64,000 nt of DNA, from assembly GCA_043228905.1 (NCBI GenBank), contig JBHGNT010000004.1:10664001-10728000 (forward strand). The letters run 5' to 3'. The position numbers and the translations under genes were made by a program. Below, in pieces: positions 7,422 through 57,832 of the stretch. Numbering within the stretch: position 1 is the stretch's first letter; the number at the start of each line of letters is the position of its first letter. The stretch is from Azolla caroliniana. Taxonomy: Eukaryota; Plantae; Polypodiophyta. The notes under the pieces were generated by a model. The model saw only the letters and a program-made list of their open reading frames with translations. It was not told the DNA's origin and ran no database searches.

Positions 7422-7990
7422 TTTTGAAAGTATATATAGTTTGATATGCGGAAGGATGTGTATAAGGACGTGCAAGGAGATGTGCATCAAACAACACAGA
7501 TATGCAACAAGAAGAGGAACATCTGATGGACACTACTTCAAAGCTTTAATGGAAGTTCTTATTCTCTCTCTCTCTCTCTGACTCTTACGCTCTAAGTGTA
7601 GCTCTACAATGTAAGGTTTGAGCTTATATACTTGCTAAGCCCTAGCTAGAGGACATGTTCACACTAAGGATACAAAGCGGAAGGAGTTATCCTTTTATGC
7701 CAACAGAGCACACGATCAAGCAAAGGAGGAAAGGGAGCATCCAATGCCCAACTGGGCCACAAGACCCGAAGGACGGAGAATGTGGTAGCATGAAGAGAGA
7801 TCACATGATCACGTGACCACAGAAAGAGAGAAATGAACGCCTAGCCCAAACCCAACACCAGAATGACAAAACACATGATCTCATAAAGTGAAATCACGCC
7901 ATTATGGGATTGATCCACCAAGCTTTAGATTTGGGTCCCAAATGACCACATTTAGACTTGACTACTAATAGATGTCACAATCTAGTTCTT
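7422..7990 (-). repeat. B 5' LTR, first part (interrupted by C)
   Basis: Adjacent to the degenerate PBS; contains (CT)n and a minus-strand TATA near 7623-7630; ends at TSD TTCTT 7986-7990. Confidence 0.6.
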
Positions 7991-8445
7991 TGTTGTCCAC
8001 TGGACCTAACGCTTAAACGAATAGAATATATTATTAGAAGTGTTAAAGAAACGCATGTAACGGTTCACACTAGGAGCGTAACGGACTAAAAGCCCTGTGT
8101 ATATAAAGGGAGGAAATCCTCTGTAATGGGGGAGCGTGTATTTTGAGAGCTACCTTCTGTAATATAGTACTATCTTCTCTGATTCCCTTGTTTGTGCAAA
8201 TCGTCTACTGATTCGGTGTAGTACTCTATTGGTAACTGTAGGCTAGTAAGCATAGGGTAAGTGTGCATATGAGATCACGCATTGGTGAGCTTCAGTTATA
8301 GTCGTCTCCCTTTACGCCCCGACGATACACTTTGCTTTGTAAGCCTGTTATGATTCACGCACATATGGATCTATTCCTTGCACCACAATCACCTTCAAGT
8401 CTACCTCGAAGGACTAAGAGTAGACCGTGTTCCTAATCGGTAACA
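7991..8445 (+). repeat. C 5' LTR (455 bp)
   Basis: Matches 50239-50403 plus 57424-57713. Confidence 0.92.
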
Positions 8446-8449
8446 GTTT

Positions 8450-8525
8450 TGGCATGCTTGGTGGGACACGAAACCGCAATCCCTTGATTAGAAGTCAAGT
8501 GCCTTATCCATTAGGCCACGGGCGC
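8450..8525 (-). pseudogene. Full-length tRNA-Arg(UCU) retrocopy including CCA, extending the PBS of C
   Basis: Minus strand GCGCCCG TG GCCT-AATGGATA-AGGC A CTTGA-CTTCTAA-TCAAG GGATT GCGGT-TTCGTGT-CCCAC CAAGCAT G CCA. 76 nt; intact D and anticodon arms; acceptor and T arms mutated. Confidence 0.9.
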
Positions 8526-9459
8526 CCTAGTAGCTATCAAATGAACCCTAATTACGCGGTTTGCGTAAAAGAAGAAATTGACAAACTTCTAAAAGCAGGG
8601 TTTATCTGGCCGGTGAAGTAGGCCATGTGGTTGACCCTGATAGTTGTGGTACCAAAGAAAAATGGTAAAATCCATGTTTGTGTGGATTATCGTAAGCTTA
8701 ATGCCGTGATGATTATGGACGCGTTCCCCTTACCCTTCACCGATAGCGTACTAGACGTGGTCACGGGCCATGACATGTATAGTTTTCTAGATGGTTTTAG
8801 CGGATACAATCAGGTACGCATGCACCCTGACGACCAGGAGAAGATTGGGTTCGTCACGGATTGGGGTGTTTTTGTCGTTGTGGTCATGATGTTTGGGCTA
8901 AAGACGGCGCCTACCACTTTCCAGCAAACAATTACGGAGATTTTTGGGGAGTACATACCCGCCTTTATGCAAATCTTTCTTGACGATTTCGCAGTATATG
9001 GAACACGAGGCGAACATTTGGTTCATCTTTGAGTTTGTTTGGAGCACTGTCGTATGTCCCACGTCAGCCTTAATCCGGTCAAAAGTGCATTCGGCGTCAC
9101 TAGTGGGGCACTTCTCGGACACATCATAAGCAAGGACGCGATAGCAGTGGATCCAAACAAAATCACGGTGATCATTGAAGCAAAGTCTCCGACTAATGTC
9201 AAAGCCCTTAGCCACTTCCTAGGTCAAATACGCTGGCATAACCGCATGTTACGGCACTTGGCGGATTTTGTGACCCCATTACACGTCACCGTACATCGAA
9301 CGCCCTTCAAGTGGATGACAATAGAAGAGAAAGCTTATGACGCACTCAAGATAATGTTAACCCAAGCATCGGTCGTACAACCACCAAATTGGGCTAAACC
9401 TTTTGACGTCTTTGTGGATGCCTCGGATATAGCAATAGGCAGTGCAGTAATGCAACTCA

Positions 9460-12400
9460 TGACGGGAACTGCACGCTCCCTATACGCAACGCTCGGCCAC
9501 AACCGAGCTTAGAATCATACACAGAAAACGGGAAATAAAGCACGACACGAAAAAGAGAAGAGTACGCAGGATGTTTACGTGGAAAACCCAAACTAAGGGA
9601 AAATATAGCCATGATGGACTCTCAGAAACATATTTACGAATATGTCTCTTCATCCGGTGAGCACTTCTCACCGGGTCTGCACCATCTGGCTCTCCGTAGC
9701 CGGGTACTCCTCATCCTGTTTCCCATCCGCACTGTTCTTCTCCCTTCCCATCCGGAGGGACCTGTCTCCCAACAAACTCCCCCTTCACTCCGGCATGGGG
9801 TGTCTTACTAGTCCGATCCTCTTCCGGCATGCATCCAGCTTGTCGGGTATCAGCACTTTGGTCAGCATATCTGACCCGTTCTCGGCCGTGTGGATCTTCG
9901 TCAGTGCGAACTCCTGGTCATCTACTCTTTCCTGGATCCAGTGATATCTTCGTTGGATATGCTTCGTCTGGGAATGGTAGGCTGCATTCTTAGCAAGATG
10001 GATGGCACTTTGACTGTCGCAATAGAGTCGGTATTCATCTTGCCGGATACCGAGCTCTCCGATGAAGTCCTTCATCCATAATATTTCCTTGCCGGCTTCC
10101 ACAACCGCCATGTACTCCGCCTCCGTGGTTGACAATGCAACCGTCTTCTGCAGCCTCGACTGCCACGAGACAGCTCCCCCTGCATATGTCATTACATACC
10201 CGGATGTAGATCGGTTGGTATCCAAATCAGCCGACATGTCCGAATCGGTGAAACCATCAAGTTGAGGTTTTCCGGAGCCGAATCGGAGACACATATTTGA
10301 AGTGCCCTTCAAATACCGGAGTATCCATTTGACCGCGTTCCAGTGCTCCTTGTCGGGATTGGTCATAAACCGGCTCACCACTCCGATTGCATATCCTATA
10401 TCCGGTCGGGTACACACCATTGCGTACATCAAGCTCCCGATGGCAGAGGCATATGGAATCTTCATCATATCCGCCTTCTCTGCTTTCGTCTTCGGGCTTT
10501 TCTTACCGGATAGCCTGCAGTTTGCTGGAAGTGTCGATCCGACCGGTTTCGCATCTGACATGTTGAACCGTTGAAGCACCTTTGTCACGTATTTCTCCTT
10601 TGACAGCCACAATTGCTTCATTGACCGGTTCCGAATAATATGCATCCCCAGCATCTGTCTTGCCGGACCCAAGTCTTTCATTGAGAAGGTCCGGTTGAGA
10701 GCCTTCTTCAGCATTCGTATTTTGGCTTGGCCCCGTCCGACGATCAACATGGCGTCCACGTACAGAAGGAGTATCAGGAAGTCGCCTCCTTCGAACTTCC
10801 TCACAAACATGCAGTGATCGGCCTGCGTCTTGTGGTACCCTTGATCGGTCATGAAGGAATCGAACTTCCGGTACCATTGTCGGGGAGCCTGCTTTAGTCC
10901 GTACAGGCTCTTCTTCAGCCGGCATACCAGGCGCTCCTTCCCTTTCTCCACAAATCCCTCCGGTTGCTGCATGTAGATCTCCTTTTCGAGGTCGCCGTGA
11001 AGGAATTTCGTCTTCACGTCCAGTTGTTCTACCTCGAGGTCCATGCTTGCCGCTATACTCAGCACCGTCCGGATGGAGGTCATCTTTACTACCGGGGCAA
11101 ATATCACGTCGAAGTCCACGTGCTTCTTCTGCTGGAACCCCTTCACCATGATCCTGGCTTTGTATCTTGGGGGGTTGCCGGCATCTCCCGGTTTCAACTT
11201 GTACACCCACTTGTTTCGGAGTGCCCGCTTTCCTTTTGGCAACTCCACCAATTCGTACGTATGGAATCCATCTCATCCTGCATGGCACTTAACCATTTGC
11301 GGCTATGGGCGTCACTTTTGGCTTCCTCAAAGCTTTCTGGCTCCCCCTCATCGGATAGTAGCACATGCTCTACATCCGGAAATCTCCGGGGGCCCCTTCT
11401 CTCTCTGAGAGGATATCTCCGTCTTCGGGCTTCGGTAACCGGCTCCTCCATTTGCTCTTCATCCGAATCCGATTCGGGGTCTTGGCCAGTTCCGGTTTCA
11501 GTTTCCTCTACTTCTTCTTCAGCTTGTTCGGTATCCTCACCGTAACCGGCTGGTCCCTCGAGTGCTAACCGGTCTCTTGCCGGTTGGGTTTGCTCATCAT
11601 AGAGTCGATCCTTACCGGTCGACTCGGAGTTCATTAACTTCTTCTCCGACTCCCAGTCGGCGAGCGCCTTGTCCTCCATGAAGATAATATCTCAACTCCG
11701 GAATACCTTCTTGTCGACCAGGTCCCACACTCGGTAGCCGAACTCATCCTCACCGTAACCGAGGAATATGCATGGTCAGGTCTTTGGATCTAACTTTCCT
11801 CTCCGGTCCTTAGCTACATGCACGTACGTGAGACACCCGAACACCTTCAGATGCCGGTAGGATACTTCCTTACCGGTCCACACTCTCTGTGGCGTGTCTC
11901 CATCCAAGGGTACTGAGGGTGATCTATTTATCACATATGTCGCCGTCGACAATGCCTCAGCCCAAAAATTCTTGGGTAGTTTTGCATGCGCTAGCATACT
12001 CCGGACCCTCTCCATTATGGTCTGGTTCATCCTCTCGGCCAGTCCGTTTAGTTCCGGCGTCTTCGGCACGGTAAATTTGAGCCGGATTCCCTTCGAGCGG
12101 CAGTACTCCTCGAACTGCCCCCGCTATTCTCCTCCGTTATCTGCTCGAACCGCCTTCAGCTTCTGGCCGGTTTCTCTTTCCACTCTCGCGTGGAGCTCTT
12201 TGAAGACGGATAACACCTGATCCTTCATCTTCAACGGTGTGGCCCACAGCTTCTGCCTGTGGTCATCTATGAACGTCACGAAGTACTGCGCTCCGGCATG
12301 TGACTTCGTGTCTACTTGACACACATCCGTATGCACCAACTCCAGTGGTGCATTACGTCTCATCGGTGGCCTTGGTCGGAAGGAGGTCCGGTTTTGCTTA

Positions 12401-14378
12401 CCGGCCAGACAATCAGTGCACGTTCTTCACTGGAAAGAGGTTGTCGTCTGCAAGCCTCTTCATCCCCTTCTCGCTCATATGACACAGCCTCTTGTGCCAC
12501 AGCTCACCGGTAGTGTCGGATGCCACGTTCACTTCTTCCGGACATAACCGGGCATTCATCAGGTACAGTGTGTTGACCTTCTGGGCCCGAGCCACAATCA
12601 GGCTCCCTTTGCTGAACTTCATGACACCGTTCCGGATGCTACCCGTGTAGCCTTCATCATCTAGCCGACCGGCTGATATCAGGTTCAGACGAACCTCCGG
12701 ATCGTGTTGGACATCCTTCAGCAGCAACTTGCATCCGGTTGGTGTTGTCAGCCACACGTCTCCTATGCCGACAATTCGGCATGTACCTTCATTCCCCATC
12801 CAGACACAGCCGTGATCACCGGCTGCATAGAATGAGAAGCATTTCCGGTCCGGGGTAAGGTGGAACGACACTCCGGAGTCTACCACCCAGGTCATCTCGT
12901 CGCCGGCAAGGTTTATCTCACTCTCCTCAGTGATGAGCGTCAACTCTTCTTCACTTGCCGCGATTGCCGTCGTTCCCTTCCGGTCCGGGGTCCGCTTCGA
13001 ATCGGTACCGTCGGTTTCCTTGTCTTTTCGGAAATGCCGACAGTTCTTTTGGAAGTGTCCCGGGTTGCCACAATAGAAGCAAGTAGGCCTTCCCCTTGAC
13101 TTTGACCATGTCCCCGACTTCTCCCGGTTCTGGGGACTACAGTTTCTATGTCTTCTGCGTTCCGATTCGGTAAGGAGCGCTTTGGAGTCAGAGCTCGTAT
13201 CTTTATCTTTCCGACGCGCCTCCTCATCTAGCAAGCTCGACTTTACTCTTGCTAGGGATAACCGTTTTCCTTCCGGCCCGGCGTTGCCCAAAGTGACAAC
13301 CAACGTCTCCCAGCTATCCGGGAGGGAACCGAGCAGGAGTAGCGCTAGTACCTCATCGGTGAGAGGTACTTCCAATGAAGTTGCCTGGTGGATCAGCCCC
13401 TAGAAGGCATTCATGTGCTCCGCCATGCTGGAGCCATCTTAGTACCGGAGTCTTACTAGCTTCCGAAATCCCGAAACCTGATTAACAGCATTTTTGTTTT
13501 GAAACATAATGCCGATCTTCTCCCAGAGCTCATGAGCCTTGCTCTCTTCATTGAAGTTCTTGTATAGGCTCATGTCGATGAAGCACCGTATGTACGCCGT
13601 TGTCTTCATGTGCATCACCTCCCATATTGTGGCGTCGATCTTGTCCGGTCTCTTGTCCCCGAACTGAACCGGTAACCAAAGATCTTTAACCACGAGCATG
13701 TCCCTCATCTTCGACTTCCACACTGAATAGTTGGAGCCGGTGAGCTTGAACATGCCGCCAAACGATTCGTCCATTTTCTGTGTCGTTTTGCTATGATACC
13801 ACTTGACGGGAACTGCATGCTCCCTATACGCAACGCTCAGCCACAACCGAGCTTAGAATCATACACAGAAAACGGGAAATAAAGCACGACACGAAGAAGA
13901 GAAGAGTACGCAGGATGTTTACGTGGAAAACCCAAACTAAGGGAAAAACCACGACAGCCCACAGGCTGCAAACTATCACTATGTTAGAATGTACAATAGT
14001 GAGTTCACGGAGGCAACGACCTCGTGCTCACGATCCTCGCCACAAGCGGCGGTTACAACAGAGGCAACGACCTCTTTCTCTCTCTCTCTCTCTGTACACA
14101 GTTACACGCTCTCTCTCTTTCCTTGCACCAACAAGAATGACAACTACTACTAAAAAGTTTGCCCTAAGTCATATTTATACTAATATGACTTTTCGGCTAT
14201 TTACAAATATAGCCATGATGGACTCTCAGAAACATATTTACGAATATGTCTCTTCATCCGGTGAGCACTTCTCACCGGGTCTGCACCATCCGGCTCTCCG
14301 TAGCCGGTTACTCCTCATCCGGTTTCCCATCCGCACTGTTCTTCTCCCTTCCCATCCGGAGGGACCTGTCTCCCAACA
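9460..14378 (-). mobile_element. Element E: Ty1/copia retrotransposon
   Basis: TSD ACTCA on both sides; LTRs 13804-14378 (5') and 9460-9774 (3', internally deleted); PBS TGGTATCATAGC about 13790-13801; PPT about 9777-9785. Confidence 0.95.
9785..13774 (-). pseudogene. E gag-pol polyprotein, disrupted
   Basis: ORF pieces 13439-13846, 12413-13375, 12124-12363, 11776-12069, 11194-11679, 9785-11251 carry gag, CCHC knuckle, protease, integrase, RT, RNase H. Confidence 0.92.
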
Positions 14379-16453
14379 ACTCATAGAGCCGAATTGGTAC
14401 AGACCGATCTATTACGCCAGTCGTAAGCTATCAACTGTCGCGAGGAACTACTCCACAACCAAGTGTGAAGCCTTGGGGATGATATATAGCATCAACAAAT
14501 TCCGGCATTATCTGCTAGGGCACAAATTTACGTTTCACGTAGATCACGCGGCGTTACTGTATCTAGTTGAGAAACAGGCCCTGACATGGAAGTTGGCCAG
14601 ATGGATGTTGCTGCTCCAAGAGTTCAATTTCGCAATATAGCATTGGTCGAGCACGAAGCATGTCGTAGCTGATTTCTTAAGCAGAGTGGATAATGGAGAG
14701 AATGCGGTGAGGGACGATGACGACTTTCCTAACGCTAACATTCTGAGGATCACGAATATGGCATCACGGATAGAAAAGAATTTTCCATATCGTTGGCTGG
14801 TGGAAATGACGTACTTTCTGAGCATGGGACTGCCACCTCCGCAGTTAAGGACGGATGAAAAGAAACGATTGGTTGTCCGTAGTTGTAACTTTTGTCTGGT
14901 CGAAGGAGTACTTTACCACAAAGGCAGCGATGGGATATGGCGACGCGGGATACGCCAGGATGAAAAGGAAGTCGTTCTGCGCGAAACTCACTACGGTACG
15001 GCCGGGGGGACATTACGCAGGTGATGTGACGGCCCGAAAAATATGGCAAGCAGGTCTATGGTGGCCAACTACGCAAAAAGACGTGTATCAATACTATAGA
15101 CAGTGTGATCTATGTCAACGGTTGGGGCAACCTACGGAGCTCGCAAGGATGCCGAACCAACCGTTTCTTCCGCTGGATCCATTCCAGAAATGGGGTCTGG
15201 ATTTTGTCGGTCCCTTTACGCCGACAGAAGCACGAACCGGCAATAAGTACATTCTCATAGCCATGGATTCCTACACTAAGTGGGTAGAAGTAAAAGCATT
15301 ATGGGACAATACGGTGGCATCCACGGCAAAATTTCTTTACAAATACATTTGGTGTCGTCTTAGTTGCCCAATCGAGTTTATCAATGATCAAGGGAGACAC
15401 TTTCTGAATTCGGTCATCTTAGAGCTAACTCACCATTATGCCGTAGAGCATAAGAAGAGCAAGCCATATTACCTGCAGGTGAATGGGTTAGTGGAGTCCA
15501 CGAACAAGACATTACAGACCATAATGAAAAAGATTGTGAATGAGAATAGAACAGACTGGGATACCAAGCTGCACAACGCTTTGTGGGCATATCGGACGAG
15601 TTACAAAACTAGCATACAGTCCACACCTTTCCAGCTAGCATTTGGGTTAGAAGCCGTAATGCCCATCGAATTCCAGGTGTCCAGTTTAAGGATTCAAGTA
15701 CGAGACCGGCTGTCAGAAGGCAAGTCCAAGCAAATACGACTACAACAACTTCTCGAATTAGGCGAGACTCAGGTCCATAGTATGGCCATACTAGAACAAG
15801 AGAAGCGACGGTGTAAAGTGTTCGTGGATCGACATTGGGGCACATAGGAGAAATGCTTTGCAGGTGGGAAGGCCATATTGGTCTTTCAAACATGCATGGG
15901 TCAAATGCCAGGTAAGTTACAGTTCCGCTCGACAAGGCCGTACTGGATAGTTGGAGCGGAAAATGGCACCTTCCAATTGGGTACCCTCGCTGGAGTTATA
16001 CTTCGGCAAAAAGTGAATGGGTTTCGATTAAAACCTTATCTGGGACCTACGCCCCCGAACCTGTTTCACGCCATAACTGACACGTCAAAGGGGTCCAAAC
16101 ACTAATCAATAGTTGGGACCCACTTGTAATAAAATGTAATAGTAATATTGTACGTCACCATTAAAATTTAAGAAAAAGAAAAGAAAAGAAAAAGAGAAGA
16201 TAGTCATGACTATTAAAAGGTGTTTATGCATGCACAAACTCCAAGATCAAGCACACGCAGCACCATGATGTGACACATGACAATGAACCCTAGAACACAA
16301 AACGAGGGAAAAAGAAGGTTTTCCGCACACTACAAAAAACGGACTAACTCTCCTCGCCCTCCTCGCTCTCCTTGCTCCCCAACATACCATAGAGTCCACG
16401 CTCACCGTAGTTTGAGAGCTTCACCTATTCTACACAAGCCTCTTCCACCCACG

Positions 16454-17435
16454 ATGTCGATCACCATCTCTATAGCTTTACGCAGGTGCCTCCTGGAAAA
16501 GGGTTTTGAGGGGTACATCAGGGTCGCCGAAGCACTAGCACACCCTGATGCTCTCGACATCGCCAAAAAGCTCAATGTGGACACTGTGACAAATGCCACC
16601 ATTCAGAAAAAATTGAACCTATCCGCGAATGGGGAGAAACACTTCGGCATCCCCCCTACAGAAACTCTAGAAGAATATTTTGGGGAATAATCCGTATCAA
16701 CCAAGGCATACAGAACGAAAGACATCCCGAACCCATTCTTTCGGGAAATATCCAAGTTCCTACTTGAGGTCGGTTGCGTGCACGTCAACGCGTACGGGAA
16801 GTCAAAACAGAAGGTAGGCATCATCATTGATACATTCGAAGGGCGCGCAGTAGATTGGGTAGTGATTACAGGACCAACGCTAAGAGAGGGCTTGCACACA
16901 TACCAGGCCGGCAAAAAGCTAAGGCCAATTATACAACAGTACCTTACGATACTGTTTCCGCCTCGTGGTCTGCCCGCCCCACCACCCAGTAAACCTACGC
17001 CTCCGCCATGATCCGCGAAACGGCGGTTATCGGAATTGGCAACCACAGAATGGGAAGAGGAACCACAACCTTCCCACCCCGTAGCGCAACTGATGCAGTC
17101 GGAACAACCGACAAGGACAGTCGAAGCACCAACAACAACGAATGAGCAAAAAACGGAACAAAACCACGAAATCCCTTGGCCAAAACAGCGAAGATTAGAT
17201 CGGAAGGATGATCGTAGATTGGTCAAAGACACAGCCACACCAGTTGACAGTTCCGCCCCTATGGAGCACATAACTACATTGGAGATAATCCGGGAACCAC
17301 AGCCAATCATTACGGCTCAGTCACATCATGGCAAAGGAGTGCTCATAGCGGAAAGCGAAGTCCTCAAGTATCTAGACATCCCGGATATGGCCCATGAGTT
17401 CGGCGCACTATTACAGTGTGGGACGACTTACGAAC
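16454..17435 (+). pseudogene. C extra 3' ORF, N-terminal part (unknown domain plus Pro-rich linker)
   Basis: AHPDA, EEYFGE*SVSTKAYRT and EGRAVDWVVITGPTLR align with the D 3' ORF; cut by insertion H. Confidence 0.75.
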
Positions 17436-17529
17436 TGTTGAGAATCAAGCTCAACCTAGTCTAGTGTGTGAACACACTCTTGAGAGTGTGCACTCAAAGG
17501 TTAAAAGTCACCACTCTTATCTACACATT

Positions 17530-18265: not shown

Positions 18266-21200
18266 CCATTAACTATGTGTCATAGAATCATATTCTATGA
18301 CACATAACTAATGAGTTTTCACATTCCCCATGACCCATGACCTTCAGTAGTTAATGAAGAGAGAGAGTGACTATATAAAGCACTCTCCTCCTACTTGTTG
18401 GGATTACGGTCCCTCCGGATGGGATGGTCGGATGTCCGGGAATCGATGATGAAGACCCCGGCTACAGAGCCGGATGATGAAGACCCCGGCTACGGAGCCG
18501 GATGATGAAGACCCCGGCTACGGAGCCGGATGATGAAGACCTCGGCTACGGAGCCGGATGACGGATGTACCCGGAGAGAGATCCGGATGCGGGAACATAT
18601 TTGTGAATATGTTTGCCAAGGGCCCTTGAGGCTATATTTGTAAATAGCCCGTAAGTCATATGTGTATAAATGTGACTTAGGGCAAACAGTTGTTGTTGTT
18701 GCTCATTTTTCTTGTTTGCGAAGTGAGAGCAGCCGAGAGAGAGAGAGAGAGAGAGAGACGACGAGGTCGTTGCCTCTGTGTATTACCGCCGCCTGTGGCG
18801 AAGACAGTGAGCTCAAGGTTGTTGCCTTGTAGCTTCACCATTGTACATCTCTGTTTATAGTGATAGTTGGAGTTTGAGGACTCCCGTGGTTTTTCCCATT
18901 TAGGGTTTTCCACGTAAAACATCCTGTGTACCTTTCTCTCTGTTGTCTTCGTGCATTTTGTATTTCCTGTTTTCTGTGAGTTGATCCTATTCCTCGGTGG
19001 TGGCCGAGCGCTGTGTTCAACAAAGTGGTATCAGAGCGACGGTAACACAGAAAATGGAAGGCGGCGGTAGTGGGCCTCCGGGCATGATGGTGTTGAACTC
19101 ACAGAACTACGCCGACTGGAAGATAAAGATGGAAGACCTTCTCATCGTCTGAGACCTGTATGAACCGATCGACAATGCCGAGATACCCAAGGGGGTAATA
19201 GAGTCGGAGTGGAAGCTTCTGAACCGGAAAGCCGTAGCAACGATCCGGCAATATGTCGATGTAAGTGTTCTGCAACATGTGGCGAACGATACGAACGCCT
19301 ATGAGATGTGGCAGAAGCTGTCCGGACTGTATGAGAGGAAGAATGCTCTGACCCGGACCTCCCTGATGAGGAAGATAGTGAATCTTAAGTACCGGGACGG
19401 CGAGAGCATGGTTGAACACGTCAGCACGTTCATGGGATTCGTGAACCAGCTTGCGGCGATCAAGTTCCCGTTGGATGACGCAATGCAAGCCATCATGCTG
19501 ATGTGTACCCTTCCGGAGAGCTGGGAGAACTTGGTAGTTACTCTCAGCACCTCCTGTAAGGAAGAGAACTTGTCTTTACAAACGGTAAAGACAAGTATTC
19601 TAAATGAAGAAGCGCGTCGGAGAGACAAAGAACCGGCCTCCGACTCGAAGGCGCTGCTTACCGAATCGGAACGGGGAAGACAACGGAACCGGAGTCCACA
19701 AAGACGGGAGAAGTCGGGGACACGGTCGCAGTCGAGGGGAAGACCTACATGCTTCTACTGTGGGAAGCCGGGGCACTTCCAGAAGAACTGTCGACATTTC
19801 CGGAAAGACAACGGAACCGACGGTACCGATTCGAAGAAGTCACCGGAGCGAAACGGTGCATACCGGGGAGCCACGGACCGGAGAGGTCCGGATCGGCGAG
19901 GGCAGGACCGGAAAGGAACGACGGCACTCGCGGCAAGTGAAGAAGAGATAATGCTCATTACCGAAGAGAGGGAGCTGAACCTTGCCGGTGAAGAGATGAC
20001 CTGGGTGGTCGATTCCGGAGCGTCGTTCCACCTGACCCCGGAGAAGAAATACTTCTCATCCTACACAGCCGGTGAGCACGGCTATGTCCGGATGGGAAAT
20101 GAAGGTACATGCCGGATTGCCGGCATAGGAGACGTGTGGCTGATGACATCAACCGGATGCAAGATGCTGCTGAAGGATGTTCGACACGTTCCGGAGGTTC
20201 GATTGAACCTGATTTCGGCCGGGAGGCTAGACGATGAAGGCTACACGGGTAGCATCCGGAACGGTGTCATGAAGTTCAGCAAAGGGAGCCTGATAGTGGC
20301 TCGGGCCCGGAAGGTCAACACACTGTACCTTATGAATGCCTGGTTGTGTCCGGAGGAGTTGAACGTGGCAGCCGACGCTGCCGGTGAGCTGTGGCACAAG
20401 AGACTGTGCCACATGAGTGAGAAGGGGATGAAGAGGCTTGCAGAAGACAACCTTATTCCAGTGAAGCATGTGCACCTGGAGAAGTGCACCGATTGCCTGG
20501 CCGGTAAGCAGAACCGAACCTCCTTCCACTCAAGGCCACCGACGAGACGTAGCGCCACATTGGAGTTGGTGCACACTGACGTGTGTCAAGTAGAAACGAA
20601 GTCACATGGCGGAGCCTAGTACTTTGTGACATTCATTGATGACCACAGCCGGAAGCTATGGACGGCACCGTTGAAGACAAAGGACCAAGTGTTGTGCGTC
20701 TTCAAAGAACTCCACGCGAGAGTGGAAAGGGAATCCGGCAAGAAGCTGAAAGCGATACGAGCGGATAACGGAGGGGAATACCGGGGGCAGTTCAAGGAGT
20801 ACTGTCGCTCGAAGGGAATCCGGCTCGAGTTTACTGTGCCGAAGACGCCGGAACTGAACGGGCTGGCCGAGAGGATGAACCGGACCATAATGGAGAGGGT
20901 CCGGAGTATGCTGGCGCATGCGAAATTACCCAAGGGGTTTTGGGCTGAGGCAATGTCGATGGCGACGTATGTGATAAATAGATCACCCTCAGTACCTTTG
21001 GACGGAGACACGCCGCAGAAAGTGTGGACCGGTAAGGAAGTGTCCTACCGGCATCTGAAGGTGTTCGGGTGTCTCGCATACGTGCATGTGGCAAAGGACC
21101 GGAGAGGAAAGTTAGATCCAAAGAGCCGGCCATGCATATTCCTCGGTTACGGCGACGACGAGTTTGGCTACCGAGTATGGGACCCGGTCGACAAGAAGAT

Positions 21201-22333
21201 ATTCAGGAGTCGAGATATCATCTTCATGGAGGACAAGACACTCGCCGACTGGGAGTCGGAGAAGAAGATGAAGAGCTCCAAGTCGACCAGTGAGGATCAA
21301 CTTTACGAAGAGCAGTCCCGACCGGCAAGGGACCGGTTAGCACTCGAGGATCCGGCCGAAGACGGTGAAGAAACAGAACCGGCCGAGGAAGACGAAACTG
21401 ATACCGGAACCGGCCCCGATCCCGAAATGGATTCGGATGAAGAGGAATCGGAGGAGCCGGTTACCGAAGCTCCGGAACGGAGATATCCTCTAAGAGAGAG
21501 AAGGGCCCCCCGGAGATTTCCGGAACCAGAGCACGTGCTGCTAACCGACGAGGGGGAGCCGGAGAGTTTTGAAGAAGCAAAGCTTGACACCCATAGCCGC
21601 AGGTGGTTAAGTGCCATGCAGGAGGAGATGGATTCCCTGCATGAGAACCACACATATGAACTTGTGGAGTTGTCGAAAGGAAAGCGGGCACTTCGAAACA
21701 AGTGGGTGTTCAAGCTGAAACCGGGAGATGCCGGAAACCCCCCGAGATACAAAGCCAGGATCGTGGTGAAGGGGTTCCAGCAAAAGAAGGGCGTCGACTT
21801 CGACGAGATATTTGCCCCGGTAGTGAAGATGACCTCCATCCGGACGGTGCTGAGCATAGCGGCAAGCATGGACCTCGAGGTAGAACAGATGGACGTGAAG
21901 ACGGCATTCCTTCACGGTGACCTCGAAGAAGAGATCTACATGCAGCAACCGGAAGGATTCGAGAAGGAAGGGAAGGAGCACCTGGTATGCCGGTTGAAGA
22001 AGAGCCTTTACGGACTGAAGCAGGCTCCCCGGCAATGGTACCGGAAGTTCGACTCTTTCATGACCGACGAAGGGTACCACAAAACGCAGTCCGATCACTG
22101 CGTGTTTGTGAAGAAGTTCGAAGGAGGAGACTTTCTAATACTCCTCCTGTACGTGGACGACATGTTGATCGTCGGACGGGACCAGGTCAAGATACGGATG
22201 CTGAAGAAAGCGCTTCACCGAACCTTCTCAATGAAGGACCTGGGTCCGGCGAGGCAAATACTAGGGATGCACATCATCCGGGACCGGAAGAAGAAGCAGT
22301 TGTGGCTGTCACAGGAGAAGTACGTAACAAAGG

Positions 22334-25300: not shown

Positions 25301-27682
25301 ACAGAACCGGCCGAAGAAGATGAAAATGATACCGGAACCGGCCCCGATCCCGAAATGGATTCGGATGAAGAAGAATCGGAAGAACCGGCTACCGAAGCTC
25401 CGGAACGGAGATACCCTCTAAGAGAGAGAAGGGCCCCCCGGAGATTTCCGGAACCAGAGCACGTGTTGCTAACCGACGAGGGGGAGCCGGAGAGCTTTGA
25501 AGAAGCAAAGCATGACACCCAGAGCCGCAGGTGGTTGAGTGCCATGCAGGACGAGATGGATTCCCTGCATGAGAACCACACATATGAACTTGTGGAGTTG
25601 CCGAAAGGAAAGCGGGCACTTCGAAACAAGTGGGTGTTCAAGCTGAAACCGGGAGATGCCGGAAACCCCCCGAGATACAAAGCTAGGATCGTGGTGAAGG
25701 GGTTTCAGCAGAAGAAGGGCGTCGACTTCGACGAGATATTTGCCCCGGTAGTGAAGATGACCTCCATCCGGACGGTGCTGAGCATAGCGGCAAGCATGGA
25801 CCTCGAGGTAGAACAGATGGACGTGAAGACGGCATTCCTTCACGGTGACCTCGATGAAGAGATCTACATGCAGCAACCGGAAGGATTCGAGAAGAAAGGG
25901 AAGGAGCACCTGGTATGCCGATTGAAGAAGAGCCTTTACGAACTGAAGCAGGCTCCCCGGCAATGGTACCGGAAGTTCGACTCCTTCATGACTGACGAAG
26001 GGTACCTCAAAACGCAGTCCGACCACTGCGTGTTTGTGAAGAAGTTCGAAGGAGGAGACTTTCTAATACTCCTCCTGTACGTGGACGACATGTTGATCGT
26101 CGGACGGGACCAGGTCAAGATACGGATGCTGAAGAAGGCTCTTCACCGAACCTTCTCAATGAAGGACCTGGGTCCGGCGAGACAAATACTAGGGATGCAC
26201 ATCATCCGGAACCGGAAGAAGAAGCAGTTGTGGCTGTCACAGGAGAAGTACGTGACAAAGGTGCTTCACCGGTTCAACATGTCGGAAGCAAGACCGGTCG
26301 GATCGACCCTCCCGGCAAACTGCAAGCTGTCCAGCAAGCAAAGTCCCAAGACAAAGGCTGAAAAGGAGGATATGATGAAAGTGCCGTATGCCTCAGCCGT
26401 CGGGAGCTTGATGTACGCCATGGTGTGTACGAGACCGGACATAGGATATGCAGTCGGAGTGGTGAGCCGGTACATGAGCAATCCCGGCAAAGAGCATTGG
26501 AACGCGGCCAAGTGGATACTCCGATACCTGAAGGGCACAGCAAACGTGTGCCTCCGATTCGGTTCCGGTAAGCCCGAACTCGAAGGCTTCACCGATTCGG
26601 ATATGTCGGCTGATGCAGATACCAGCCGGTCCACATCAGGGTATGTGATGACGTATGCAGGGGGAGCTGTTTCGTGGCAGTCGAGGCTGCAGAAGACGGT
26701 TGCGTTGTCAACCACGGAGGCGGAGTACATGGCAGCTGTTGAAGCCGGCAAGGAAATAATATGGATGAAGGACTTCATTAGAGAGCTCGGTATCCGGCAG
26801 GAGGAGTACCGACTCTACTGCGACAGTCAGAGTGCAATCCACCTTGCGAAGAACGCGGCCTATCACTCCCGGACGAAGCACATCCAGCGAAGATATCACT
26901 GGATCCGGGAAAGGATAGAAGACAAGGAGTTCGTGCTGACAAAGATCCACACGGACGAGAATGGGTCGGATATGCTGACCAAGGTGCTCACATCCGACAA
27001 GCTGGAAGCATGCCGGAAGAGGATCGGATTGGAAAGACATCCCATGCCGAAGTGAAGGGGGAGTTTGTTGGGATTTCGGTCCCTTCGGATGGGATGGTCG
27101 GATGTCGGAAATGAATGCCGACGAGCCCGGTTTCGGTTTCGGATCCGGATGACGAAGACCCCGGCTTCGGTGCCGGATGACGAATGTACCCGGAGAGCGA
27201 TCCGGATGCAGGGACATATCCGTGAATATGTTCGCTATGGGCCCCTGAGGCTATAGTTGTAAATAGCCCAAAGTCATATAAGTATAAATATGACTTAGGG
27301 CAAACAGTTTTACTGTTGCTACTCATTTTTCTGTTTTTCCACTCAAGAGGAGTGAAGAGAGAGCAGCCGTGAGAGAGAGAGAGAGATAGAGCGCGAGAGA
27401 GGAAGAGGTAGACGCCTCTGTGTATTTTCCGCCGCCTGTGGCGAGGACAGCGAGCTCAAGGTCGTCGCCTTGCAGCTCGCCATTGTATACTTCTCTGTAT
27501 AGTATTGGTTTGGAGTCTTGTACTCCCGTGGTTTTTCCCGGCTAGGGTTTTCCACGTTAATCCCTGTGTGCTCGCGCCTTTTTTTTGTTTCTCCGTGTGG
27601 TTCCTATTTTCTGCTGCATTGATCCGCGATTAATCGGTTGTGGCCGAGTGGAGAAGGTGAATAGAAGTGTCGATTCCCAACA
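22334..27682 (+). mobile_element. Element G: young Ty1/copia, close relative of F, nested in F RT
   Basis: LTRs 22334-22951 and 27066-27682; perfect TSD AAAGG; PBS 22955-22966. Confidence 0.96.
22982..27055 (+). pseudogene. G gag-pol, intact except one TGG>TAG stop at 24320-24322
   Basis: In-frame ORFs 22973-24322 and 24341-27055 with all copia domains. Confidence 0.93.
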
Positions 27683-28772: not shown

Positions 28773-28805
<33 letters not shown>

Positions 28806-30020: not shown

Positions 30021-30617
30021 TCGTAACTAGATAATCCTGTAAGGTCACCGGCCGTAGGCCGTGTTCTGTAATCCTTTTTCTGTCGCAGCAATATATCTTA
30101 TTTGTGCCCATTTTGCTCCATGTGTTTGTGCTTTGGTTCATACTTATGATTTCAGCGCCGCCCACGCCTGTCAAGATCTCACTAGTGTTTTATCTCTGAT
30201 CATTTTCTCCCTCACGACGCCTCTGTTACGAGCCTTCACGTACCACGCCCTTGAATACCAATAGCCGCAGATCTATCGAAGGTGTTCACCCAAAGGAACG
30301 GGTAACACAATTTGGCACGTCGTAACTAGATAATCCTGTAAGGTTACCGGCCGTAGGCCGTGTTTTGTAATCCTTTTTCTGTCGCAGCAATATATCTGAT
30401 TTGTGCCCATTTTGCTCCATGTGTCTATGCTTTGGTTCATACTTATGATTTCAGCGCCGCCCACGCCTATCAAGATCTCGCTAGTGTTTTATCTCTGATC
30501 ATTTTCTCCCTAACGACGCCTCTTACGAGCCTTCACGTACCACACCCTTGAATACCGATAGCTGCAAATCTATCGAAGGTGTTCACCCAAAGGAACGGGT
30601 AACACAATTTGGCATGC
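30021..30617 (+). repeat. About 299-bp tandem duplication of D 5' LTR 3' part plus partial PBS
   Basis: 30021-30319 repeated at 30320-30617; first copy ends TGGCACG. Confidence 0.92.
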
Positions 30618-32091
30618 CCGGTTACAGTTGTGAGTGCACAGCGAACTTCGTTGAAGGTAACCACCAGTCGCCGTTACGGCGCCCTCTCGCACCACGAGGT
30701 CTCGGCCACCTGCCCGACGCCCTGAGCCAGTCGAAGGAACTTCCGACTCAGCGGTCACTGACCAATCCTTTCCCGAGCAATCGGAGGCTTCCCCAGTGCA
30801 ATCCTCGCCACCGGACACTCGATCGCGAGTTGATTCACCACCAAAACCCCTGCCGAGCCCTTCGGAGGTCAATCAACCGTAACTAAACCCTTTTCCGGTG
30901 CTACCAGAAGACCCAGAGTACGACATCATGCCGTACCCATACCCACGATACACCGACGGACCAGACGCGGAGTCACACATCCGTGCCTTTATATCCACGT
31001 GGCAGGCCAACCACTCAACGCACCGCCTCACACCGGCCGAAATCGATGCCTCAAAGATTGCCGAGTTCACACTGTCCCTCAATGGACCGGCCGCACGATG
31101 GTACTCTCGCCTCGAAATAGGAGAGGCCACCACTTTCCAAATTGTGCGCACAAAGTTCCTTGAACTTTTTCATCGCGAGGTGCCTAAACGGGAACTGCTC
31201 CGGCAATTTTTCTCTATATGCCAAGAACCGCACGAAACGGTCGCGCAGTTCACGATCTGGTTCCAGGATCTCTACAGACAAGTGGCCGATGATGTCTTGG
31301 CACAACATATACCGGACACTTTCCTGTCCAGTTTACAAGAGCCTCTCCGAACAACTCTCGCACTTACAAATTTCGCCAACCATACTCTCATAGCGCGGGT
31401 TCTCGCCCTCGATCGGACCCAGCACGGTGCGGCCTTCTCAATGACATCCTTACAAAACGCTCTTCCCCAAGAGGACAATCGCTTTCGCCAAGCTCTCCAA
31501 TGCATGGTGTGTTCAGGATCAGGGCACCTAGCCCTCAAATGTCCCCACCGACCACAGTGTCCGATCTGTCAATCTCGAGCTCACACTGTCGAGCAGTGCG
31601 AATATAATATGCTGAACCGCACAACGGCAGCACCGGTCCGCCAAATCGAGCCAAGAAATACATACTCTCAGCAGGACGAGCAATATGCCTACGGAGACCA
31701 GGATAACAACCGACCGTGATCCCCGGATCGACGGCGGCGAGACGACGACTACCGACGTGATGACCGCCGTGATCACTATCGCGATGACCGGCACGACGAT
31801 TATGCTCGATATGATGACGATCGCGATGACCGATATGACCGATGGAACTCACGCATTGATCGGCGAAACGACAACCGCAACTCACGCAACAATAGAAGAC
31901 ATAACGACAACCGCCGATGGGACGCTCCTCAAAATGACCAACGCAACTCCAACGCACCTCGGACCAACCCATCACCAAACGAGACTTGGAATCAATAGCA
32001 ACAACTTCCACCCACAGACCGAGCGGACACCAGCAGCTCGGCCAAAGTTACGTGTTTTAAATGTAACCAACCAGGCGACTATGCCATGCTA

Positions 32092-43644: not shown

Positions 43645-43868
43645 AGAATCGGTCGCACCTGAGGCGGACGCCCGAGAGGATATGACACCCCCGGACCAAA
43701 CTCAACCCCCCGCACCGACAATCCAACCACGCCACCCTGCCACCACCCCGGACCCCGAAAACATCCTCGACATCTTAAAAGAGGAATGAAACGAGGATCA
43801 CGCCTAAAAGGCAATTTTTGTAATATTGTTAGTATTTTGTAAGTCGTGGGTCCGACGGACAAGGTCTT

Positions 43869-43885
43869 GTCCCACGGGCGTGCCA
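43869..43885 (-). promoter_or_regulatory. Inverted tRNA-Arg(UCU) PBS at the PPT position of D
   Basis: Plus strand GTCCCACGGGCGTGCCA, then AG, then LTR TGTTGTCC at 43888. Confidence 0.85.
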
Positions 43886-48476: not shown

Positions 48477-48541
48477 CACACACTCACAACACATATCTCT
48501 AGTCTATTCCGATGCACAAGAATCACCATCGATTCTTTACA
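48138..48541 (+). repeat. H 3' LTR (404 bp)
   Basis: Matches the joined pieces 17436-17529, 18271-18395 and 29074-29262. Confidence 0.92.
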
Positions 48542-48546
48542 TGAAC

Positions 48547-50191
48547 TCATGGAATTTTTGGCGACACAACAGATCAAGGTGTCCTAGAGAATGGCCAAGG
48601 ACCACGCGGAACAGTAAATGATTGAGCGTGTGCTGACAAGAATGGCGGAAAGTGAAGATGCAGGACCCCTCGCCAAGATAGGCAGGCAGCGGAACGCAAG
48701 GATTCGCCGCATGGGCATTGAATTACCCCCATTCAATATGGCCCTTGTCAAAGTACATAGGGAGTTGGTCACAGTCAGTATGGGAGCCAAAGATATGGCT
48801 ATCAAAAATAAAAATGTCTGGAAAAAAGTCAAGCTGACTCAAGCCCAACTACAAAAGGCCCAAGAGCGCATTGCGGAATTAGAACGCACCACAACTACGG
48901 CGCAGCAAAACCCCAGACTGGCATCCAGTGATGACGCATCAACGACTTTACGGGAGGAGGTCAAAGCACAAACCGCCATCACCGCAAAAGCAAAAAGAGC
49001 TACGCAGTTAGCCAAGTCCGAGATTGACCGCCTCCGCGCAGAACTTCGCCAATCATTAGACAAAGAAAAGGATATTTGGGCAAAAGGACAAAGGGTAGTG
49101 AAAGCACTGGAGGATAAGCTCGAGACGGAGACAATAGCGCATACCCACACAAAAGAAGAAAACAGAAAGTTGTGTGAGGAAGCCCAAAAGACAGAAGTCG
49201 TTATCACGGGACTCCGAGAGTGATTGGAAAAGAAGAAAGCATGGTACGACGAACAGCTCGTGCGAGAACGAGAACTGAAGCATCAGGTAGAAGTCCGCTT
49301 GAACAATGAAATGGGCCAGCTCGAGGAACTACACTTGAAAGAATCCCAGATATGGGCAAAGATGAAGAGCCTCTATGAGGAAGTGGCTATGACCAATAAG
49401 CGTAAAATCGAAAACCTCAAGAAAGCCCTAGACGAAATGCAAACCCGCTCCCAAACGATAATGGACAATGTATGCATTCTTCTTCAAACAAATCGCGAGC
49501 GGGTTACGACACAGTTGAAAGCGGCGTTGGACAAAGGATGGACGGTGTGGGCAATGCAAGCAATAGAATTGCACACTTATCGGGCGAACTAGGAGAACCG
49601 ACGAAAAGAAGGCAGAGGCTTCCACAAGCTCAATGAGGAAAGCATTGCGGTAGTACACGAGGACCTCGCGCAAGACTATCGCATGCTAGCGGACCAACAC
49701 TCCGAAGAACTCACGCAGTTATTGGAAGATTTCGGGGAAAGTCAAGAAGACATTTTCCGCCGGCTAATGGAATCCGCAACGAACAACAGAGGATGGAGAC
49801 AATTGCGGTACCAGACAACGATTCCGCCGAACAAGATGAGCCTCAGCCTAATTCGAATAACCCACCAGAGGTGACCACTACGCTTGTCCACGCTATGGAA
49901 GATACGGACAGGGAAGAGCCCCGTCCGACTACTTGCCCACAGACTGAAGAGCCAATGTCATAACCACGAAGGAATGATACGGACACCGAACCAACTGAGC
50001 CGGCCCTGATCACACGGAGTAAAGATGAGAACATGGGAACTCACACACCGGCCGAGCGTGGTGACGTGGACGACACACAATTGGATGAGGCAGTCGAGCA
50101 GAACAACGAAGCACCTACGGATGTCACACCGTCTCCGGACCATGTCTTACAGACGGAGTCGAACATCCTAGACATCTTGAACTATGAGTAG
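48547..50191 (+). pseudogene. C extra 3' ORF, C-terminal coiled-coil part
   Basis: E/K/Q/R-rich ORFs 48618-49592 and 49683-49874; ENRRKEGRGF and QLLEDF motifs shared with D. Confidence 0.75.
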
Positions 50192-50219
50192 ATGGACGGG
50201 CCCGACGTGCCATGGCACT

Positions 50220-50236
50220 GTCCCACAAGCGTGCCA
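50220..50236 (-). promoter_or_regulatory. Inverted tRNA-Arg(UCU) PBS at the PPT position of C
   Basis: Plus strand GTCCCACAAGCGTGCCA, then AG, then LTR TGTTGTCC at 50239. Confidence 0.8.
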
Positions 50237-50843
50237 AGTGTTGTCCGCCGGACCTAACGCTTAAACGAATAGAATATATTATTAGAAGCGTTAAAGAAAC
50301 ACATGTAACGGTTCACGCTAGGAGCGTAACGGACTAAAAGCCTTGTGTATATAAAGGACGGAAATCCTCTATAATGGGGGAGCGTGTATTTTGAGAACTA
50401 CCTTATTATAGATCATAGTACTAATGTAAGCTTAAGATAAGGATAATGAAAGATAGATAGAAAGGAGAAAGAGAAAGAAGGGTGCCGATCCACCCGACCA
50501 CCCCCGAGCGAAGGGATCGAGACGGACTCGAGCCTCGATCGGCGTCCCATACCACCGCCGTGGCGTCGAGTCGTACCTGGTGCTGGCGCACTCGCTACAA
50601 GAGTTGACCCACCACACGAGCAGAGTCTCGATGTAGTCAAAAGATGATCAAATGAGGGTAGCTAGGCCTCTTATTTATAGCGAAACCCAAGGCCCCCAGG
50701 CAAGTTCACACTTGACCTAATGGGTTGTCTCAATCCCGAGGATTAAAAGTAATCCTCCCCTTCTTTACACTCTCATTTAACCCTCACACTTATCCACGTG
50801 TATAGAATACTACGGTAAATTCTTACCACGGGATATTATATGG

Positions 50844-56720: not shown

Positions 56721-57713
56721 AACGTTTTAAATAATCAATTAAAGACCACTACAACATCATTGACTTAATGAAAAAAATTACATATAAACTAAACACATGA
56801 TTAGATGGGAGAAGAGAGAATAGAAAGAAAAATTATGGAAAGAGTTACCGAAGTTCTTTGTTGATCGTTGTCTGGATCAAGGCCAACCGCACAACGATCG
56901 ATCAGCATCAATCAAAAGACAAATGAAAAACAAAGAAACATTAGTACAAAAATCTGATACCAAATATTATAGATCATAGTACTAATGTAAGCTTAAGATA
57001 AGGATAATGAAAGATAGATAGAAAGGAGAAAGAGAAAGAAGGGTGCCGATCCACCCGACCACCCCCGAGCGAAGGGATCGAGACGGACTCGAGCCTCGAT
57101 CGGCGTCCCATACCACCGCCGTGGCGTCGAGTCGTACCTGGTGCTGGCGCGCTCGCTACAAGAGTTGACCCACCACACGAGCAGAGTCTCGATGTAGTCA
57201 AAAGATGATCAAATGAGGGTAGCTAGGCCTCTTATTTATAGCGAAACCCAAGGCCCCCAGGCAAGTTCACACTTGACCTAATGGGTTGTCTCAATCCCGA
57301 GGATTAAAAGTAATCCTCCCCTTCTTTACACTCTCATTTAACCCTCACACTTATCCACGTGTATAGAATACTACGGTAAATTCTTACCACGGGATATTAT
57401 ATGGTCATGCCCGTAACATACCTTCTGTAATATAGTACTATCTTCTCTGATTCCCTTGTCTGTGCAAATTGTCTACTGATTCGGTGTAGTACTCTGTTGG
57501 TAACTGTAGGCTAGTAAGCGTAGGGTAAGTGTGCATATGAGATCACACACTGGTGAGGTTCGGTTGTAGCCGTCTCCCTTTACACCCCAACGATATGCTT
57601 TGCTTTGTAAGCCTATTACGATTCATGCACATACGGATCTATTCCTTGCACCGCAATCACCTTGAAGTCTACCTCGAAGGACTAAGAGTAGACCGTGTTC
57701 CTAATCAGTAACA

Positions 57714-57832
57714 TTCTTCAGGTACCTAGATAGTTCATAGAGATTACAATAAAGTGTGTATACACACTTTTTCACACATCGTGCTTTTCTCCATAAGAAT
57801 TTGTTCACACAAGTTGAGCTTGATTCTCGACA
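57714..57832 (-). repeat. B 5' LTR, remainder including terminus
   Basis: Begins with the second TTCTT copy; minus-strand terminus TGTCGAGAATCAAGCTCAAC. Confidence 0.6.

What the first reader, a model, noticed from the sequence alone, without database searches (positions are those of the whole stretch)
8446..8545. Entire mature primer tRNA-Arg(UCU) copied into element C in place of gag/protease
Seen: the PBS continues through all 76 nt of the tRNA (CCA to G1), then after about 6 nt joins the start of RT (YQMNPNYA). The leader, gag and protease present in D are absent. Position 58 reads T (TTCGTGT, not TTCGAGT). Established: plus-strand strong-stop synthesis normally halts at m1A58 after 18 nt, CCA is added post-transcriptionally, and RTs misincorporate at m1A. 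Inference: a fossil of RT read-through of the modified primer followed by an aberrant second strand transfer that still integrated with a perfect TSD. It may instead be a non-autonomous subfamily carrying its own primer sequence.
Basis: partly seen in the sequence, partly recalled or inferred. Interest (0 to 1): 0.78.

Follow-up and report, generated by a model that had tools for sequence, protein, structure and literature searches.

The report
Whole primer tRNA trapped in retrotransposon
A dead plant jumping gene carries a complete reversed copy of an arginine tRNA in place of its capsid and protease genes, likely a one-off accident in which its copying enzyme ran through the tRNA that starts it, and its wider family also has a tRNA-like end where the second-strand start signal normally sits.

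Summary
Observation confirmed. Gypsy element C (7991-57713, TSD TTCTT) has a 76-nt antisense tRNA-Arg(UCU) at 8450-8525, joined through 3-7 nt to RT; about 2.8 kb (leader, gag, protease) is missing. Ordinary family members leave this sequence after a 14-nt PBS, so the CCA is just PBS and proves nothing. The LTR-tRNA join is one variant-free contig in one run; no subfamily was seen. The tRNA-RT join was not confirmed by reads. T58 and T53 are private to C (host copies: A58 about 95%); position 26 is not. Against a clean read-through: the host has tandem tRNA-Arg copies, some with CCA; C's copy is a chimera of two acceptor-stem types and matches 2 nt of gene flank. Best reading: reverse-transcriptase read-through plus aberrant strand transfer (0.6); rival: repair filler copied from the tRNA arrays (0.25). 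Retroviral precedents exist. Separately, C, D and 11 related loci have no polypurine tract; a hairpin-split tRNA-Arg 3' half ends 2 nt before the 3' LTR. I noted this before looking; the scan had already reported it many times on other pieces of this genome. The whole-tRNA copy was not found in earlier notes.

The parts
7986..7990 (+). left target-site duplication of element C (TTCTT)
7991..8445 (+). 5' LTR of C (455 nt, TG...CA); 6.8% divergent from the 3' LTR
8446..8449 (+). 4-nt spacer between LTR and PBS, same as in the family
   Evidence: no other letters listed at high depth
8450..8463 (+). ordinary 14-nt PBS of the family (tRNA-Arg positions 76-63, includes the complement of CCA)
   Evidence: 11-15 contigs per run leave the window sequence at 8463 into a leader
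8450..8525 (-). complete tRNA-Arg(UCU) copy, 76 nt; 8464-8525 (positions 62 to 1) is the part peculiar to C
8468..8468 (-). T at tRNA position 58, private to C
   Evidence: host copies A58 in 95-97% of laid depth
8473..8473 (-). T at tRNA position 53, private to C
   Evidence: host copies G53 in about 99% of laid depth
8526..8532 (+). linker between G1 and RT; first 2 nt match the 5' flank of one host tRNA type
8533..9459 (+). RT and start of RNase H of C (two stop codons), cut by copia insertion F (9460-14378)
14379..17435 (+). rest of RNase H, integrase and first part of the 3' extra ORF of C, cut by copia insertion X (17436-48541)
48542..50195 (+). second part of the 3' extra ORF and 3' untranslated region of C
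50196..50236 (+). tRNA-Arg 3'-half mimic in place of a polypurine tract in C (T-arm-like segment, short hairpin, 3' end with CCA, then 2 nt, then the LTR)
50239..50403 (+). first part of C's 3' LTR (split by copia E, 50404-57418)
57419..57713 (+). second part of C's 3' LTR
57714..57718 (+). right target-site duplication of C (TTCTT)
30610..30622 (+). PBS of related element D (13 nt, tRNA-Arg), followed by a normal leader
43846..43885 (+). tRNA-Arg 3'-half mimic in place of a polypurine tract in D

Best explanation
Element C is a dead, apparently single-copy Ty3/gypsy insertion whose leader, gag and protease are replaced by a whole antisense tRNA-Arg(UCU), likely because reverse transcriptase copied a tRNA molecule to its 5' end during plus-strand synthesis and the product then likely rejoined the minus strand 2.8 kb downstream before integration. 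Shown: the anatomy, the loss of about 2.8 kb, the private T58 and T53, the perfect TSD. Inferred: (1) plus-strand strong-stop DNA ran past the usual stop, misreading m1A58 as T and making a second error beside position 54; (2) the mixed acceptor stem arose either because a second tRNA isodecoder was the template (wobble-paired primer, or a switch to a co-packaged tRNA or precursor near position 58) while the element's own PBS was kept by heteroduplex repair; (3) the unpaired tRNA tail was joined to the RT region with little or no homology; (4) integrase processed normal LTR ends, so the TSD is perfect.
For: The copy is colinear with the PBS and ends at G1 or 2 nt beyond. Of the tRNA positions well covered by host contigs only 58 and 53 are private to C; both are transversions, whereas C's LTRs show 3 transversions in 455 sites, so about 0.2 are expected in 62 nt (P of two or more = 0.018) and a given transversion at a given site about 0.002. 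m1A58 is the plus-strand stop and position 54 a second stop in HIV-1 and MLV (PMC8599865, passages); m1A58 is present in Arabidopsis tRNAs (10.1101/790451, passages); A-to-T is the main misreading of m1A for several RTs, strongest after chemical reduction (PMC11019740, passages). Junction contig 8434-8503 has 0 differences and depth 49 where other single pieces show 18-75 (run X1); 0 of 10 related loci with a PBS extend it into a tRNA. Retroviral precedents of near-whole tRNA copies with deletions are described in PMC12220202.
Against: The copy is chimeric: its 3' strand is of the host type that leaves the window at 8519, its 5' strand of the type that matches to 8525-8527. The two bases after G1 match that second type's gene flank (chance about 1 in 16). 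The body matches the high-copy tandem genes, including a mismatched 50-64 pair and A26; whether those genes give mature tRNA is unknown. One genomic tandem copy matches 8447-8527 with 4 differences, CCA included (X1 record 3). 3-5% of laid depth at 8468 is not the A58 base, so a T58 donor gene is not excluded. In HIV-1 such read-through DNA is said to be unable to integrate (PMC8599865), and one study found modification of position 58 not essential (PMC1785368, passages). No laid contig covers the tRNA-RT join.
Confidence: 0.6

Rival explanations
1. A normal element was deleted after insertion by double-strand-break repair: the broken end at the PBS invaded one of the host's many tandem tRNA-Arg genes by its 14-nt homology, copied 62-64 nt as filler DNA and was rejoined in RT.
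For: Host has many tandem tRNA-Arg(UCU) copies (15 of 17 joints shown are all 'goes back'). Explains directly the chimeric stem (own PBS plus another gene's body), the 2-nt flank match and the match to array-type bases. Deletions of 60-4300 bp with 1-131 bp filler are known in maize (PMC2686159, passages).
Against: Stopping within 2 nt of G1 and a private transversion exactly at position 58 (plus one at 53) must both be chance. Maize filler usually comes from near the break and no other tRNA copy lies in the 64-kb window.
Confidence: 0.25
2. C belongs to a non-autonomous subfamily that carries its own tRNA copy and was mobilised in trans.
For: C keeps both LTRs, the PBS and the 3' priming motif. 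A piece from 8438 to 8521 with 4 gaps appears in all three runs and could be another LTR end followed by a long tRNA (records 2, 9, 17).
Against: Among the 24 longest pieces listed (of 844) only one joins C's LTR to the tRNA body, with no differences and near single-locus depth; records 2, 9, 17 do not match C's LTR upstream of 8438. Ordinary members leave at 8463. 0 of 10 related loci with a PBS have the extension.
Confidence: 0.06
3. The tRNA-to-RT join is an assembly error; the real allele continues from the tRNA into other sequence.
For: No contig of X1, X3 or X5 was laid on 8531-8565.
Against: The tool warns that holes prove nothing (filters; contigs drop rare paths between high-copy repeats). 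The LTR-to-tRNA join is present in X1, both LTRs pair with a perfect TSD, and RT-RH-IN-extra ORF follow in order.
Confidence: 0.07

Closest known systems
Plus-strand read-through past m1A58 in retroviruses (HIV-1, MLV; PMC8599865, passages read)
   Same: tRNA sequence copied beyond the PBS into plus-strand DNA when the stop at 58 (or 54) fails.
   Different: There shown in vitro and in mutant cells and said to block integration; here a whole tRNA sits in an integrated plant element with a perfect TSD.
tRNA-Gly copy between LTRs of circular MMLV DNA (Colicelli and Goff 1986) and beside a deleted HIV provirus (Gurgo and Franchini 2025, PMC12220202; abstract, results part, discussion and passages read; the 1986 paper only second-hand)
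   Same: Near-whole reverse-transcribed tRNA abutting an LTR end, associated with large deletions.
   Different: Those are non-cognate tRNAs lacking 4-5 nt at the 5' end, at a circle junction or outside the 3' LTR; C has the cognate tRNA, complete to G1, at the internal PBS.
HITME recombination in HIV-1 (Konstantinova et al. 2006; only as summarised in PMC12220202, the paper itself was not held)
   Same: 63-65 nt of tRNA replace a deleted internal segment by template switching.
   Different: Engineered hairpin in nef, tRNA-Asp or -Glu, not at the PBS.
TRIMp3 elements Helenus, Ajax, Cassandra (PMC10886601, abstract and passages read)
   Same: LTR elements carrying small-RNA-derived sequence.
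   Different: Their tRNA-like part lies inside both LTRs of multi-copy non-coding families; C's is internal, antisense, single and C keeps pol.
Plant non-chromovirus Ty3/gypsy lineages (Athila, Tat/Ogre/Retand, Phygy, Selgy; PMC6317226, passages and supplementary file 3 read)
   Same: RT-RH-IN order, no chromodomain hit, 5-bp TSD, 3' extra ORF, tRNA-Arg PBS as in Ogre and TatIII.
   Different: No archaeal RNase H hit (unlike Tat), Arg rather than Asp PBS (unlike most Athila), 5-bp TSD and long 3' ORF (unlike Phygy, Selgy), and no polypurine tract.

Membership tests
Ty3/gypsy LTR retrotransposon | Two LTRs with TG...CA ends and a target-site duplication | tested here: met
   455-nt LTRs, 6.8% divergent, TSD TTCTT
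Ty3/gypsy LTR retrotransposon | Domain order RT, RNase H, integrase | tested here: met
   Pfam on relatives L004, L051; C aligns to them in that order
Ty3/gypsy LTR retrotransposon | gag and protease upstream of RT | tested here: not met
   absent from C, present in D and relatives; C is a deletion derivative
Ty3/gypsy LTR retrotransposon | Polypurine tract next to the 3' LTR | tested here: not met
   longest purine run in the last 30 nt is 3-4 in 13 of 13 elements, against 7-12 in 5 of 5 copia elements of the window
Tat/Ogre/Retand | Additional archaeal-type RNase H domain | tested here: not met
   no such Pfam hit in 2 of 2 intact polyproteins
Athila | Dominant tRNA-Asp PBS | tested here: not met
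   PBS is tRNA-Arg; lineage table
Athila / Phygy / Selgy | Placement by RT-RH-IN phylogeny against REXdb | not testable with these tools
   no REXdb sequences on hand; named homologs are Adiantum and Marchantia proteins at 52-62% identity
Phygy / Selgy | 4-bp TSD, no extra ORF | tested here: not met
   5-bp TSD in C and D; 3' ORFs of 917-1194 codons in relatives
Primer read-through product | tRNA copy colinear with the PBS and ending at the tRNA 5' end | tested here: met
Primer read-through product | Mismatches at modified bases | tested here: inconclusive
   position 58 yes, 53 (beside 54) yes, 26 no
Primer read-through product | CCA present that the gene lacks | tested here: inconclusive
   CCA lies in the ordinary PBS; some genomic copies also match through it
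Primer read-through product | No genomic flank of the tRNA gene | tested here: inconclusive
   2 nt match one gene type's 5' flank
Primer read-through product | Whole copy from one isodecoder | tested here: not met
   3' and 5' acceptor strands match different host types
TRIMp3 (Helenus, Cassandra) | tRNA- or 5S-derived promoter inside the LTRs of a multi-copy non-coding family | tested here: not met
   tRNA lies outside the LTR, once

The most novel reading that the evidence does not exclude
This plant gypsy lineage primes both DNA strands with host tRNA-Arg: it has no polypurine tract but a conserved, hairpin-split tRNA 3' half ending in CCA 2 nt before the 3' LTR, whose complement on minus-strand DNA is a longer tRNA-binding site than the real PBS. 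Element C is then a fossil of that reaction: it names the primer (full-length tRNA-Arg(UCU) with a misread m1A58, not the element's own mimic), and its mixed acceptor stem records two different tRNA molecules in one particle.
Probability: 0.3. Interest if true: 0.75.

Novelty: new variant of a known kind. Interest (0 to 1): 0.42.

Why it matters
As a single dead copy the tRNA capture changes little by itself: it is a rare error of a type already seen in retroviruses. Its value is as a natural record: if it arose in reverse transcription it shows that read-through of a modified primer can still integrate in a germ line, identifies the exact tRNA used, and preserves a base-modification footprint in genomic DNA. 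It matters more because it sits in a lineage with no polypurine tract, where the identity of the primers is the open question; a true tRNA with anticodon and D arms at the PBS argues that minus-strand priming uses host tRNA and not the element's own 3' mimic.

Tried and rejected
No whole genome is held for this window, so no census of junctions was possible. ARAGORN found no tRNA in the window. A 25-nt tRNA pattern found nothing in viral contigs; the 3' motif gave 2 hits there, both unrelated by BLAST to the window, and 0 in prokaryote genomes; protein scans gave 0 viral loci and 1 short distant genome locus. No RNA holder listed. No contig laid on 8531-8565: a hole, not counted as evidence of absence. 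A gapped alignment of the 3' motif to C's own tRNA copy beat all 300 shuffles in only 4 of 13 elements (decayed reference, cheap gaps; D's end was set one base off), so I rely on the end-anchored comparison instead. Hairpin covariation is modest: two of five measures exceed all 500 shuffles and the covariation score does too, but the two pair-count measures do not (314 and 322 of 500), the structure was drawn from these sequences, and one family is a base out of register. Rejected: CCA as proof of a mature template; a mismatch at position 26; T58 taken from the element's own 3' mimic (needs two extra switches and C's copy lacks the mimic's 1-nt gap); TRIMp3 membership. A weak Pfam hit on the L051 extra ORF (E 0.001, under the cut-off) was treated as noise. 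Nine paper searches listed no report of a whole tRNA at the PBS of a plant element or of a tRNA mimic replacing the polypurine tract; most subscription papers and old scans are not searched. PMC1456326 was not held.

Full report
Setting. The window is a nest of LTR retrotransposons ending in PPR-like repeats. No whole genome is held. Named homologs of the gypsy RT are from Adiantum and Marchantia at 52-62% identity, so the host is probably a seed-free plant, likely a fern (inference). Element C runs from 7991 to 57713 with TSD TTCTT; copia elements F, X and E are inserted in it, and X holds gypsy element D, which holds copia G. LTR divergence falls from C (6.8%) to D (4.5%), F (about 2%) and G, E (0.2-0.3%), as the nesting requires.

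The observation. 8450-8525 is a complete tRNA with a UCU anticodon on the minus strand, CCA next to the LTR and G1 furthest from it. It has three unpaired positions in the acceptor stem and two in the T stem. RT homology starts clearly at 8533 and perhaps at 8529, judged on 27 aligned RT starts. The PBS-to-RT distance is 91 nt against 2779-2871 nt in 8 of 8 intact elements, and the gag-protease halves of 4 relatives hit only D in the window. The description is correct.

What ordinary family members look like. I laid Logan contigs of four runs on 8250-8790 and of three runs on 8425-8565. In each run 11-19 contigs follow C through LTR, spacer and 8450-8463 and then turn into a leader, and others enter RT at 8533-8541 from an intact upstream frame. 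So the first 14 nt of the tRNA copy, CCA included, are simply the family's PBS; only 8464-8525 is peculiar to C. Of 80 related loci from the metagenome collection (kept of 199), 10 show a PBS on the plus strand and none of the 10 extends it beyond about 13 nt.

Copy number. In run X1 one contig covers 8434-8503 with no differences at depth 49, where the other listed single pieces have 18-75. It starts at the first 31-mer that includes 8464 and ends 30 nt after the private base at 8473, as a path unique to C would. None of the other 23 listed pieces (24 shown of 844) joins C's LTR to the tRNA body. X1 may be the source sample, and the tool says that depth is no copy number, so this is support for about one copy and against an assembly error at that join, not a count. 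Nothing was laid on 8531-8565, so the tRNA-RT join rests on the window alone.

The host's tRNA copies. 218-297 contigs per run were laid on the 141-nt stretch, and 15 of 15 joints shown (of 17) go back, i.e. two tRNA copies in tandem on one contig. Two acceptor-stem types appear: a commoner one that leaves the window at 8519 (16-21 contigs per run), and one that matches to 8525-8527 (9 contigs at 8527 in X1). C's 3' strand fits the first type and its 5' strand the second, which explains the mismatched stem. Only three difference rows reach 8%: 8468 (A58 in 95-97% of depth), 8473 (G53 in about 99%) and a minor host variant at 8470. Position 26 (8500) and the unpaired position 50 (8476) equal the host majority; positions near piece ends may be under-reported. 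Several genomic pieces match through CCA, one (X1 record 3) over 8447-8527 with 4 differences.

Weighing the two origins. For an RNA template: the copy ends at G1 or 2 nt beyond, and its only two private changes are transversions at 58 and 53, where about 0.2 transversions are expected in 62 nt. Position 58 is the known plus-strand stop and 54 the second stop (PMC8599865), plants have m1A58, and m1A is misread mainly as T by several RTs. For a DNA template: the chimeric stem, the 2-nt flank match, the array-type body, the abundance of donors, and the known habit of plant deletions to carry 1-131 nt of filler. My rough weighing (inference, not a computed likelihood) is that T58 counts about tenfold or more for RNA, the end point a little for RNA, and the chimera and array-type bases each about twofold for DNA. 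A template switch from the primer to a second tRNA or precursor near position 58 would explain T58, the chimera and the 2-nt flank together, but is untested. I give 0.6 to reverse transcription, 0.25 to repair filler, 0.06 to a subfamily and 0.07 to a misjoin.

Precedent. Near-whole tRNA copies with deletions are on record for MMLV circles, an HIV provirus and HITME recombination (PMC12220202; the two older papers seen only through it). Helenus and Cassandra carry small-RNA sequence inside their LTRs and are a different thing. Nine searches listed no plant case at the PBS, and two look-ups in the scan's own notes found none.

A second feature of the same element. At I saw that C and D have, instead of a purine tract, a sense copy of the tRNA-Arg 3' end finishing 2 nt before the 3' LTR (note). 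The full motif plus LTR start is in 11 of the 80 loci and two more contigs end inside it (L040, L043); most loci stop short of the 3' LTR, and among 21 further long loci inspected none reached a recognisable 3' LTR without it. These represent about five families with pol near 70% identical, from assemblies with neighbouring accession numbers, so they are not 13 independent cases. LTR borders are confirmed by LTR pairs in C, D and L004 and by motif-LTR-PBS order in L019, L048, L052. The first 11 nt of the PBS equal the reverse complement of the motif at 11 of 11 in 3 elements, 10 of 11 in 2 and 9 of 11 in 4. Upstream lies a segment like tRNA positions 49-58, then a short hairpin whose stem differs between families yet pairs (covariation modest, see rejected tests). 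The longest purine run in the last 30 nt is 3-4, against 7-12 in five copia controls. The motif is real and conserved; that a tRNA primes the plus strand there is inference, with an element-derived RNA primer as the main alternative. The scan had already reported this feature many times on other pieces of this genome; those notes are not independent evidence, and I did not take the idea from them.

Link between the two. If C's copy came from reverse transcription, it is a true tRNA with anticodon and D arms and without the mimic's hairpin or 1-nt gap, so the minus strand was primed by host tRNA-Arg(UCU) and not by the element's own 3' mimic. That is the main use of this fossil.

Verdict. Real, probably a one-off, mechanism likely but not proven, of a kind known from retroviruses and not found reported for plants. 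Interest 0.42, most of it from the lineage in which it sits. tRNA position numbers and the general reverse-transcription scheme are from my own knowledge.

Noticed in passing
window 50196-50236 and 43846-43885; L001, L004, L005, L011, L014, L019, L038, L044, L048, L051, L052 (L040, L043 partial): No polypurine tract; a hairpin-split sense copy of the tRNA-Arg 3' half ends in CCA 2 nt before the 3' LTR. Conserved across about five families. Already noted many times by the scan on other pieces of this genome.
   Followed up: yes
contigs of runs X1, X3, X5 laid on window 8425-8565: The host has many tandem tRNA-Arg(UCU) copies of two acceptor-stem types; the majority has an unpaired 50-64 position, and the 3' flank consensus cells show no T run within 30 nt. 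Whether they are expressed is unknown.
   Followed up: partly
records 2, 9, 17 (window 8438-8521) and the X5 loose end at 8460: Pieces that look like the end of a different LTR followed by a long tRNA copy; may be a second, independent capture, or only array flank.
   Followed up: no
L004:7515-11099, L051:6958-9888, L043:6247-8997; window 16433-17446, 48495-49754, 41669-43506: A forward 3' extra ORF of about 900-1200 codons with no Pfam family above cut-off is conserved at 32-74% in patches across the lineage.
   Followed up: partly
L004, L051, L043, L050 polyproteins: The only protease-like motif found is D-G-G rather than the usual D-T/S-G, in 4 of 4; Pfam detected no protease family.
   Followed up: no
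window 30021-30614: D's 5' LTR holds a tandem duplication of about 297 nt that the 3' LTR lacks.
   Followed up: no
window 13948-14204: A 257-nt insertion in one LTR of copia F, similar to LTR sequence of the copia elements at 18395-29068.
   Followed up: no
window 18395-29068: A copia element (22334-27683) inserted into a close relative (about 91% identical inside), itself inside the 5' LTR of element X.
   Followed up: no
window 58568-63900: PPR-like open reading frames built of 306-nt repeats, 855 nt from the end of element C.
   Followed up: no
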